Sequence record: MG770228.1
Source of the DNA: Escherichia phage PMBT57
Reading direction: 5' to 3' (one strand)
Length of the DNA: 64,000 bases
The notes beneath the pieces were generated by a model that saw only the letters and a program-made list of their open reading frames with translations, was not told the origin of the DNA and ran no database searches. Every line of letters starts with the position of its first letter. The first letter of the stretch is position 1. A program made the position numbers and the translations under genes. This document shows positions 7,831 to 7,910 of the stretch, one piece after another.

Positions 7831-7910
7831 TATTAGTGAACACACTATAGAACCTCCCAGCTTCCTCCAGATGTACGGCAATACATTAGCTGGTAGTGTG
7901 TTCACTGATA
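7831..7910 (+). ncRNA. structured RNA module A: long hairpin closed by a 17-bp stem
   Basis: 7831-7847 pairs base-for-base with 7894-7910 (16 Watson-Crick pairs plus one G-U). Inner stems are CCAGCT/AGCTGG and ATGTA/TACAT. It lies 8 nt after tRNA-Thr and has no ORF. Confidence 0.5.

What the first reader, a model, noticed from the sequence alone, without database searches (positions are those of the whole stretch)
7831..7910. Module A: 80-nt hairpin closed by a 17-bp stem, 8 nt downstream of tRNA-Thr
Positions 7831-7847 pair one-for-one with 7894-7910 (16 Watson-Crick pairs plus one G-U, checked base by base). Two nested inner stems follow: CCAGCT/AGCTGG and ATGTA/TACAT.

A duplex of this length is in the range recognised by RNase III, the enzyme that processes T7 early transcripts. 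Its placement right after a tRNA 3' end suggests either a processing signal or a stable RNA.
Basis: seen in the sequence. Interest (0 to 1): 0.55.

Follow-up and report, generated by a model that had tools for sequence, protein, structure and literature searches.

The report
Long-stem RNA module in N4 tRNA operon
The hairpin is real and sits inside the tRNA gene cluster of a phage N4-type genome; its long closing stem has been kept paired through evolution in related phages while the inner part is swapped for unrelated sequences, so it is most likely a small phage RNA or RNA-processing signal, though no cutting enzyme has been shown.

Summary
Positions 7831-7847 pair with 7894-7910 (16 Watson-Crick pairs plus one G-U). 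The helix extends to 7824-7917, with 24 of 25 positions paired. Folding energy is -32.9 kcal/mol (z = -6.2), and the helix is the second-longest closing stem on the + strand of the window.

The window is an Enquatrovirus (phage N4) genome. The hairpin lies 1-8 nt after tRNA-Thr, in a roughly 1.3-kb non-coding tRNA cluster that has no terminator before 8698.

The exact sequence occurs only in 15 N4-type records. Other N4-like phages have a hairpin at the same position. Its closing stem covaries: 12 of 19 pairs show changes on both sides, and 0 of 500 shuffles reach this. G-U pairs fall on the + strand, which points to RNA. The interiors ("heads") of these hairpins are unrelated to one another.

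Best reading: a transcribed, stem-scaffolded small RNA or processing module. Its roughly two-turn helix abuts the tRNA-Thr CCA end and is probably cut by host RNase III. The cleavage is inferred, not shown.

It is unannotated and matches no Rfam family. I rate it a new variant of a known kind, of moderate interest.

Side finding: in relatives, but not in this window, the hairpin directly precedes a tmRNA-like tag module (ANDDVVLMAA*).

The parts
7824..7828 (+). Outer extension of the 5' arm (TACAG). It pairs with 7913-7917 and starts 1 nt after the tRNA-Thr CCA.
   Evidence: pair probabilities 0.84-1.0
7830..7847 (+). 5' arm of the closing helix (TTATTAGTGAACACACTA).
   Evidence: Aligned with the 5' arms of positional orthologs; covariation.
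7848..7893 (+). The 'head', specific to the N4 lineage. It comprises an unpaired stretch UAGAACCUC, a 6-bp stem (7857-7862 with 7887-7892), an unpaired stretch UCCUCCA (7863-7869), and an apical hairpin (7870-7875 with 7882-7887, loop CGGCAA). Two CCUCC motifs lie partly or wholly in the predicted unpaired stretches.
   Evidence: structure; no homolog of the head in any fetched locus; found only in 15 Enquatrovirus records
7894..7911 (+). 3' arm of the closing helix (TAGTGTGTTCACTGATAG). G7907 forms the G-U pair; in the N4 type strain it is A, giving A-U.
   Evidence: (L028)
7913..7917 (+). Outer extension of the 3' arm (TTGTA), pairing with 7824-7828.
7906..7923 (+). Possible alternative small hairpin (TGATAG, loop GTTGTA, CTATCA) that overlaps the end of the 3' arm. 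It is clearer in the HK2 type (CTTTGATAG, GTTGTA, CTATCAAAG) and weaker in the N4 type strain.
   Evidence: sequence read; inference only
7747..7822 (+). Context: tRNA-Thr(UGU) with encoded CCA, immediately upstream.
7918..7989 (+). Context: conserved module X (AGTCCAGAC...CAGATGGAGCCAGGTGGAATCCCTGGCAATTAA), immediately downstream. It is 93-97% identical in other Enquatrovirinae.
8054..8166 (+). Context: second long-stem module, with a 27-bp closing helix around a head that contains a tRNA-like T-arm.
   Evidence: (-44.8 kcal/mol, z = -8.8)
8254..8337 (+). Context: third long-stem module (TTAGTGCTCTGGT / ACCAGAGCACTAA).
8698..8727 (+). Context: the first + strand intrinsic-terminator-like site downstream of the hairpin; the probable end of the operon.

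Best explanation
The hairpin is a transcribed RNA module inside the polycistronic tRNA operon of an N4-type phage.

It has two parts. The first is a closing helix of about 24 bp that acts as a generic scaffold and processing stalk. The second is a 46-nt head specific to the N4 lineage.

Proposed steps:
1. The cluster is transcribed as one + strand precursor. This is inferred from same-strand tRNAs and the absence of a terminator before 8698.
2. RNase P and the usual tRNA enzymes release the tRNAs (established knowledge of E. coli tRNA maturation).
3. The helix starts 1 nt after the tRNA-Thr CCA. That leaves almost no single-stranded trailer for RNase E or 3' exonucleases. A double-strand-specific cut by host RNase III within the two-turn helix would then separate tRNA-Thr from the downstream RNAs. 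It would leave a short 3' trailer for trimming and release the head on a stem stub as a small stable RNA. This step is inferred and not shown.

The target of the head is unknown. Its two exposed CCUCC motifs would allow pairing with Shine-Dalgarno-like sequences, but that is speculation.
For: Real and stable structure:
- z = -6.2 for the 80-nt hairpin.
- Pair probabilities of 0.97-1.0 for all but the outermost pair (0.84), and the same helix in the MFE fold of the 700-nt cluster.
- Among the two longest stems in 64 kb.

Operon context:
- tRNA-Asn, Ser, Thr and Pro all lie on the + strand around it.
- The first + strand terminator-like site downstream of the hairpin is at 8698-8727.
- No ORF of 30 aa or more lies on the + strand across it.

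Selection on pairing:
- In 22 distinct arm pairs from positional orthologs, 94.7% of cells are paired.
- 12 of 19 pairs have changes on both sides, and 0 of 500 shuffles reach this. Slid registers give 35-53% pairing.
- The N4 stem differs from the common type by several double changes.
- The only difference between the window and the N4 type strain is G-U versus A-U.

RNA rather than DNA: G-U occurs in 33 cells over 7 columns on the + strand. A-C, which would be G-U on the other strand, occurs in 4 single cells (table).

Helix length: the positional orthologs have helices of 17-25 bp, median about 21, or roughly two turns. From my own knowledge, that is the length class E. coli RNase III needs.

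A host factor is the simpler explanation: similar long-stem modules occur in tRNA clusters of unrelated enterobacterial phages (a P1-like phage and Ackermannviridae), which share hosts rather than proteins.

Precedent, from memory: Pragai and Apirion, J Mol Biol 1981, reported that RNase III takes part in processing the phage T4 tRNA cluster precursor.
Against: - No transcript ends, RNA-seq or cleavage data exist for this region, and I found none in the literature.
- The helix has no internal loop of the T7 R1.1 type. RNase III antideterminant positions cannot be judged without a mapped cut site.
- rnc and RNase III are not mentioned in the main text of a genome-wide screen of E. coli factors for N4 infection. 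Any such processing is therefore not evidently essential for plating. This is weak evidence, because the supplements were not read.
- Heads conserved across diverged stems, such as type c, show that the module is more than a cleavage signal.
- The orthologs were partly collected with a stem-finding script, which biases toward paired sequences. However, every locus found through its flanks did have the hairpin.
Confidence: 0.45

Rival explanations
1. It is a stable effector small RNA, and RNase III plays no part. RNase E and RNase P cuts in the flanks release the module, and exonucleases trim until they stop at the helix. On this view the helix is only a protective scaffold. The head is the functional part, for example a regulator, decoy or protein-binding RNA.
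For: - Heads of relatives are themselves conserved and structured across diverged stems (type c).
- A tRNA-like head is 90-92% identical between two different closing stems.
- T4 encodes small stable RNAs of unknown function in its tRNA cluster (rnaC and rnaD).
- rnc is not reported as an N4 host factor.
Against: - Only 1 nt separates the tRNA-Thr CCA from the helix, leaving little room for a single-strand-specific cut.
- The N4 head has no homolog, so there is no comparative support for its function.
- Its best complementarity within the window is one 12-mer, which is no more than chance.
Confidence: 0.25
2. It is an evolutionary remnant. In relatives the homologous hairpin directly precedes a tmRNA-like tag module. 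N4 lacks that module, so its hairpin would be a leftover spacer with no present function.
For: - In ECBP1, Kaypoctavirus, FSL SP-058 and others, the hairpin abuts the tag module.
- N4 and the HK2/pSb-1 type have the hairpin but no tag module.
- N4-type records are 99-100% identical here, so conservation within the genus is uninformative.
Against: - The N4 stem carries several double compensatory changes relative to the common type yet remains almost perfectly paired. That implies continued selection for pairing along the N4 lineage.
- The tag-less arrangement occurs in at least two lineages, N4 and the HK2 type.
Confidence: 0.12
3. It is a DNA-level element: a cruciform, a recombination site, or a miniature inverted-repeat mobile element whose arms mediate exchange of the interior.
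For: - Interiors are swapped between otherwise conserved arms.
- Short repeats of the CTATCAA type flank some copies.
Against: - The G-U versus A-C asymmetry favours a + strand RNA.
- The hairpin is single-copy in the window and absent from 5,426 E. coli genomes.
- It is not found in bacterial genomes beyond what chance gives: 5 hits against about 8 expected by my own arithmetic.
- A 46-nt spacer makes cruciform extrusion unfavourable (established knowledge).
Confidence: 0.08
4. It is a transcription terminator or attenuator, or it encodes a small protein.
For: The hairpin is strong. A 26-codon ATG ORF starts at 7870 (my reading of the sequence).
Against: - No U-run follows the stem, and the terminator scan does not call it.
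- tRNA-Pro and further conserved RNAs lie downstream on the same strand.
- The ORF has no Shine-Dalgarno sequence, and its region is replaced by unrelated sequence in relatives.
Confidence: 0.03

Closest known systems
E. coli RNase III processing stems (the stalks flanking 16S/23S rRNA; the T7 early-mRNA sites R1.1-R5)
   Same: A helix of about two turns within a polycistronic precursor, placed between mature RNAs. The double-stranded stalk encloses a structured RNA, as in rRNA operons.
   Different: No cleavage has been demonstrated. There is no asymmetric internal loop as in T7 R1.1. The phage is N4-type, not T7-type. The helix encloses a small, variable head rather than an rRNA.
Phage T4 small stable RNAs rnaC and rnaD (species 1 and 2) in the T4 tRNA cluster
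   Same: Non-tRNA structured RNAs co-located with phage tRNA genes on the same strand, with unknown function. T4 rnaC has a T-arm plus long arms, like window module 8054-8166.
   Different: There is no sequence similarity: the hairpin matches only N4-type records. Hairpin A has no T-arm and no tRNA-like 3' end.
Spacer-derived small RNAs of tRNA operons (for example E. coli 3'ETS-leuZ; from my own knowledge)
   Same: An RNA released as a by-product of tRNA operon processing that may act on its own.
   Different: Those RNAs are single-stranded, Hfq-dependent sponges cut by RNase E. This is a closed hairpin with a long stem.
Bacterial Y RNA-like RNAs (YrlA, Rfam RF02553)
   Same: A long stem formed by the 5' and 3' ends plus a variable or tRNA-like module. 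Reported in some phages (PMC4201824).
   Different: No GNCGAAN0-1G motif in the 5' strand. No Rfam hit on the hairpin. YrlA genes lie near Ro60/Rsr genes, and no such link is known for N4.
Correia/NEMIS-type inverted-repeat elements, which are transcribed and cut by RNase III (from my own knowledge)
   Same: Long terminal inverted repeats forming an RNA hairpin that is an RNase III substrate.
   Different: Those are multi-copy mobile elements. This is single-copy and position-specific within a tRNA operon.

Membership tests
RNase III processing site | About 20 bp or more of nearly continuous double-stranded RNA | tested here: met
   24 of 25 positions are paired, 18 of them contiguous, with probabilities of 0.97-1.0 for all but the outermost pair (0.84).
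RNase III processing site | Lies within a transcribed precursor between mature RNAs | tested here: inconclusive
   Same-strand tRNAs lie on both sides, and no + strand terminator-like site lies between the hairpin and 8698. There are no transcript data.
RNase III processing site | Staggered cleavage that depends on rnc | not testable with these tools
   Needs RNA end mapping in rnc+ and rnc- hosts, or an in-vitro cleavage assay.
RNase III processing site | No antideterminant base pairs in the proximal and distal boxes | not tested
   The boxes are defined relative to the cut site, which is unknown.
T7 R1.1-type RNase III site | An asymmetric internal loop at the scissile bond that directs a single-strand cut | tested here: not met
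   The closing helix contains only a 1x1 G-G mismatch.
Intrinsic terminator | A GC-rich stem followed by a U-run | tested here: not met
   The scan does not call it, and the stem is followed by GGUUGUACUAUC.
tRNA or tRNA-like element | A cloverleaf or T-arm detected by ARAGORN or Rfam RF00005 | tested here: not met
   No call at 7824-7917.
YrlA / Y RNA-like | Rfam RF02553 score at or above the gathering score of 69 | tested here: not met
   No hit on the hairpin. Hits of 19.5 and 17.3 bits fall on neighbouring tRNA parts.
YrlA / Y RNA-like | The Ro60-binding motif GNCGAAN0-1G in the 5' strand of the terminal helix | tested here: not met
   The motif is taken from PMC4201824. It is absent from TACAGGTTATTAGTGAACACACTA.
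tmRNA (standard or permuted) | A tag reading frame plus a tRNA-like domain, as detected by ARAGORN or the Rfam tmRNA models | tested here: not met
   There is none in the window. Relatives have a tag-like module next to the homologous hairpin, but it scores below Rfam threshold (33 bits against 47). I found no acceptor partner for it.
T4 rnaC/rnaD stable RNAs | Sequence or structural homology to T4 species 1 or 2 RNA | tested here: not met
   A blastn search of the hairpin finds only N4-type records. T4 rnaC has a T-arm, and hairpin A has none.
Miniature inverted-repeat mobile element | Multiple dispersed copies | tested here: not met
   Single copy in the window. No match in E. coli genomes. 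Only N4 itself in the viral contigs.
Long-stem module family of N4-like tRNA clusters (defined here) | Same position (after a tRNA CCA, before module X or the tag module), with a related closing stem that covaries | tested here: met
   The HK2/pSb-1 type shares the downstream junction GGTTGTACTATCA.

The most novel reading that the evidence does not exclude
Hairpin A may be one instance of an undescribed class of 'stem-scaffolded RNA cassettes' that is widespread in the tRNA operons of enterobacterial phages. In this reading, a conserved closing helix of about 20 bp, recognised by a host enzyme such as RNase III, serves as a universal scaffold for excision and stability. It presents interchangeable structured heads: a possibly pseudoknotted head, a tRNA-like head, and lineage-specific heads such as the CCUCC-rich one in N4. 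The heads would act as separate effectors or decoys. In many phages the cassette is coupled to a tmRNA-like tag-encoding module.
Probability: 0.25. Interest if true: 0.75.

Novelty: new variant of a known kind. Interest (0 to 1): 0.5.

Why it matters
Phage N4 is a classic model, yet this 1.3-kb non-coding cluster is annotated only for its tRNAs. If the long-stem modules are excised small RNAs, N4 and many other enterobacterial phages would express a set of uncharacterised structured RNAs alongside their tRNAs. The heads are exchanged between phages like cassettes, a pattern that might be expected of host-interaction or anti-defence functions. The conserved stem would also be a natural, portable scaffold for expressing small RNAs in E. 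coli. The tmRNA-like tag module next to the homologous hairpin in relatives raises the question of whether these phages interfere with ribosome rescue, and this can be tested.

Tried and rejected
- **Rfam, permissive scan.** The scan of 6500-9500 gave nothing on the hairpin.
- **Similarity searches.** E. coli genomes gave no match. The phage collection gave only N4-type records plus a weak 30-nt match to the 3' arm. A viral-contig scan with the N4 arms and a free interior found only N4 itself. A scan of bacterial and archaeal genomes for the common arm type found 5 scattered hits, about what chance gives by my arithmetic.
- **Homologs of the N4 head.** None in any fetched locus, in either orientation. 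I considered that the N4 interior might be an inverted copy of another head type. By eye the resemblance is limited to a purine-rich run, so I dropped the idea.
- **Antisense targets of the head within the window.** The best is one 12-mer at 59648. I expect about 0.3 by chance, so it is not significant.
- **Y RNA membership.** Rejected.
- **Terminator and sigma-70 promoter scans.** Nothing at the hairpin.
- **The relatives' tag module as a canonical tmRNA.** ARAGORN makes no call. Rfam scores below threshold. I found no 3' acceptor strand complementary to the conserved GUUUU 5' segment. This remains unexplained.
- **Literature.** Searches for N4 transcript maps of this region, for phage tmRNA-like tags, and for the tag peptides themselves found nothing relevant.

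Full report
**What the window is.** The stretch 7400-8400 is 100% identical to Escherichia phage VEc25. It is 98.8-99.9% identical to 14 other Enquatrovirus records, including phage N4 itself. The 3506-codon ORF on the minus strand just downstream is the N4 virion RNA polymerase. The finding lies in a non-coding stretch of about 1.3 kb (7422-8752) between two small protein genes.

ARAGORN and Rfam find four tRNAs in this stretch, all on the + strand:
- tRNA-Asn, 7573-7647
- tRNA-Ser, 7653-7742
- tRNA-Thr, 7747-7822
- tRNA-Pro, 8175-8251

The first + strand intrinsic-terminator-like site downstream of the hairpin is at 8698-8727, which another record also annotates. No public record annotates anything at 7824-7917.

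**The observation.** It is correct in every detail. The 17 pairs, the single G-U (T7834-G7907), the two inner stems, and the 8-nt distance from tRNA-Thr are all as stated.

The fold is far better than chance: -32.9 kcal/mol against -14.7 +/- 2.9 for shuffles, z = -6.2.

The helix is longer than reported. With 7824-7828 pairing to 7913-7917, and T7830 pairing to G7911, 24 of 25 positions are paired, with one G-G mismatch. The helix appears in the MFE fold of the whole cluster. With its 3' flank, pair probabilities are 0.97-1.0 for all but the outermost pair (0.84). The double-stranded region therefore begins 1 nt after the tRNA-Thr CCA.

On the + strand of the 64-kb window, the two longest closing stems are this one and 8054-8166. 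Both are in the tRNA cluster, and the next best elsewhere has 18 pairs. A third long-stem module lies at 8254-8337.

**Distribution.** The exact hairpin occurs only in the 15 N4-type records, at 99-100% identity. It is absent from 5,426 complete E. coli genomes. In the viral contig collection it is found only in N4.

**A family with a conserved stem and swapped interiors.** Other N4-like phages carry a long hairpin at the corresponding place in their tRNA clusters. These include Gamaleyavirus (ECBP1, HK2, pSb-1, PGN829.1, PhAPEC5, Bas96), Kaypoctavirus (K60PH164C1, VLCpiP4a), JZBo1, Salmonella phage FSL SP-058, and several metagenomic contigs. In each the hairpin follows a tRNA or tRNA-like CCA. 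Its closing stem is usually CTATCAATGAGTACATTA...TAGTGTACTCTTTGATAG.

Positional homology with the N4 hairpin is shown by HK2, pSb-1 and two metagenome contigs. In these, the common-type 3' arm (...CTCTTTGATAG) is followed by GTTGTACTATCAAAGTCCAGAC or a close variant. That is the same junction that follows the N4 arm (...CACTGATAG-GTTGTACTATCACAGTCCAGAC). BLAST also aligns the window's 3' arm with theirs (E = 1).

Every locus recovered through flanking patterns, rather than through the stem itself, had such a hairpin.

**Covariation.** I aligned 22 distinct arm pairs. Of the cells, 94.7% form standard pairs, and 12 of 19 pairs show changes on both sides. None of 500 column shuffles reaches the observed values for percent paired, pairs with changes on both sides, or the covariation score. 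Sliding the register by 1-3 columns drops pairing to 35-53%.

Examples of compensatory change:
- GAGTACA/TGTACTC becomes GAGCACC/GGTGCTC.
- CAATGAG/CTCTTTG becomes CGGGGAG/CTCCCCG or CAGGAGAG/CTCTCCTG.
- The N4 form is TAGTGAACAC/GTGTTCACTG.

The only difference between the window and the N4 type strain within the hairpin turns the G-U pair into A-U.

G-U pairs are frequent on the + strand: 33 cells in 7 columns, two of which are conserved. A-C, which would be G-U on the opposite strand, occurs in 4 isolated cells. The pairing molecule is therefore + strand RNA, not DNA or antisense RNA.

One caveat applies. Part of the set was collected with a stem-finding script, and the sequences are related. 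The shuffle result is therefore supportive, not a probability.

**The interiors ("heads").** Closely related phages carry at least nine or ten mutually unrelated heads inside the same stem.

Some heads are themselves conserved across diverged stems. Type c occurs in JZBo1, Bas96, PhAPEC5 and metagenomes. In the type-c hairpin alignment, 8 of 32 predicted pairs show double changes, all of them within the closing helix; by eye the head shows a further covarying stem and a possible pseudoknot.

The head in FSL SP-058-type phages contains a tRNA-like T-arm. It is 90-92% identical to the head of window module 8054-8166, which has a different closing stem. Heads are therefore exchanged between stems.

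The N4 head (7848-7893) has no homolog in any fetched locus. Its predicted unpaired stretches carry two CCUCC motifs.

Long-stem modules with helices of about 18-27 bp also occur in the tRNA regions of a P1-like phage and of Ackermannviridae.

**How it most likely works.**

Shown:
- a stable + strand RNA helix of about two turns;
- evolutionary maintenance of that helix by compensatory change;
- its location in a tRNA operon, directly abutting the CCA end of tRNA-Thr.

Inferred: the cluster is made as one precursor. Almost no single-stranded trailer follows tRNA-Thr, so a double-strand-specific endonuclease is the natural way to separate it from the downstream RNAs. Host RNase III is the obvious candidate. 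Similar modules occur in unrelated phages that share only their enterobacterial hosts, which favours a host enzyme over a phage protein. The cut would leave a short trailer for exonucleolytic trimming and release the head on a stem stub.

From memory, RNase III takes part in processing the T4 tRNA cluster (Pragai and Apirion 1981). I could not retrieve that paper.

Against overconfidence:
- There are no transcript or cleavage data.
- The helix lacks the internal loop of T7-type sites.
- rnc is not mentioned in the main text of a genome-wide N4 host-factor screen.
- The conservation of heads shows that the module is more than a cut site.

I give 0.45 to the reading [quoted passage not shown]. 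I give 0.25 to [quoted passage not shown].

**Rejected or unlikely readings.**
- Terminator: no U-run, and no call by the scan.
- tRNA or tmRNA: no call.
- Y RNA: no Rfam hit, no GNCGAAN0-1G motif, and no known link to Ro60.
- Mobile inverted-repeat element or DNA cruciform: single copy, with the G-U asymmetry described above.
- Coding: only a 26-codon ORF without a Shine-Dalgarno sequence, in a region replaced by other sequence in relatives.
- Vestigial spacer left after loss of the neighbouring tag module: possible (0.12). However, the N4 stem has accumulated several compensated changes while staying paired.

**Comparison with known systems.** Functionally it resembles the RNase III stalks of rRNA operons, and in location the T4 stable RNAs rnaC and rnaD. 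T4 rnaC has a T-arm, like module 8054-8166. It is a member of neither by sequence. It matches no Rfam family and is unannotated.

The combination of a covarying generic closing stem with cassette-like, interchangeable heads inside phage tRNA operons is, as far as I could find, undescribed. I therefore rate it a new variant of a known kind, with interest 0.5.

**Side finding, not in this window.** In many relatives the homologous hairpin is followed at once by a conserved module of about 160 nt. It contains CAUAAAU-GCA AAC GAU GAU GUU GUU CUG AUG GCN GCN UAA, which reads ANDDVVLMAA*. Variants are ANDDVILMAA, ANDDLMMVAA and ANEEAYLMVA, and the Ala codons show synonymous changes.

The module also occurs, without the common-type hairpin, in a P1-like phage, in siphovirus Akira (behind its own sigma-70-like promoter), and in Ackermannviridae.

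Rfam's permuted-tmRNA model scores 33 bits, below its threshold of 47. ARAGORN calls nothing. I found no acceptor-stem partner. No paper in the library contains these peptides.

N4 and the HK2-type phages have the hairpin but not this module.

Noticed in passing
Relatives only: L003 1252-1413 (ECBP1), L002 ~1860-2025, L005, L008, L009, L012, L006 ~2490-2660 (P1-like), L013 ~700-870 (Akira), L014, L015: A tmRNA-like module that encodes a tag with a resume-codon context: CAUAAAU-GCA..., reading ANDDVVLMAA* and variants, with synonymous changes in the Ala codons. It lies immediately 3' of the homolog of hairpin A in N4-like phages. It also occurs in unrelated phage families. Rfam tmRNA_permuted scores 33 bits (threshold 47). 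ARAGORN makes no call, and I found no acceptor partner. It is absent from this window.
   Followed up: partly
window 8054-8166: A second long-stem module with a 27-bp closing helix (27 of 27 positions paired, including G-U) around a tRNA-like head with a T-arm (GGTTCGAATCC). There is no encoded CCA. Folding gives -44.8 kcal/mol, z = -8.8. The head is 90-92% identical to the head inside a different closing stem in Salmonella phage FSL SP-058.
   Followed up: partly
window 8254-8337: A third long-stem module directly after tRNA-Pro (TTAGTGCTCTGGT / ACCAGAGCACTAA). Folding of 8252-8346 gives z = -4.3, and no homolog was found in the fetched loci.
   Followed up: partly
window 8347-8448: An element of about 95 nt, closed by GTGGGATG/CATCCCAC, is 97-99% identical to Gamaleyavirus and Kaypoctavirus loci. 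That is much more conserved than its surroundings. It has no Rfam match.
   Followed up: no
window 7918-7989: Module X (AGTCCAGAC...ATATCTG...CAGATGGAGCCAGGTGGAATCCCTGGCAATTAA) is 93-97% identical in all Enquatrovirinae loci examined. It ends in a T-arm-like hairpin. Its function is unknown.
   Followed up: partly
window 7990-8055: A 66-nt tRNA-like sequence with a 7-bp acceptor stem, a T-arm and an encoded CCA. Three public records annotate it as 'tRNA-Undet'. Neither ARAGORN nor Rfam calls it here. It has no normal D-arm or anticodon arm.
   Followed up: partly
window 7906-7923; L007 1010-1033: The last 6-9 nt of the hairpin's 3' arm can pair instead with a CTATCA(A) copy 6 nt downstream, forming a small hairpin. 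Equivalent small hairpins (GATGG-TAAG-CCATC and similar) follow other long-stem modules in relatives.
   Followed up: partly
L004 (phage Jura), upstream of tRNA-Asn: Jura carries an extra 127 bp relative to the window, upstream of tRNA-Asn. A repeated AAGAAGTTGTTTCTT suggests a tandem duplication in the leader or promoter region of the cluster.
   Followed up: no
L002 (OY978778.1, Klebsiella phage K60PH164C1): The public record annotates pseudogene CDSs named 'RIIA/RIIB lysis inhibitor' across what is clearly the tRNA and non-coding RNA cluster. This is probably an annotation error.
   Followed up: no
window 59648-59659: A 12-nt stretch (TTGCCGTACATC) is perfectly complementary to the apical part of the hairpin head. 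This is about what chance gives in 128 kb, so it is probably meaningless.
   Followed up: yes
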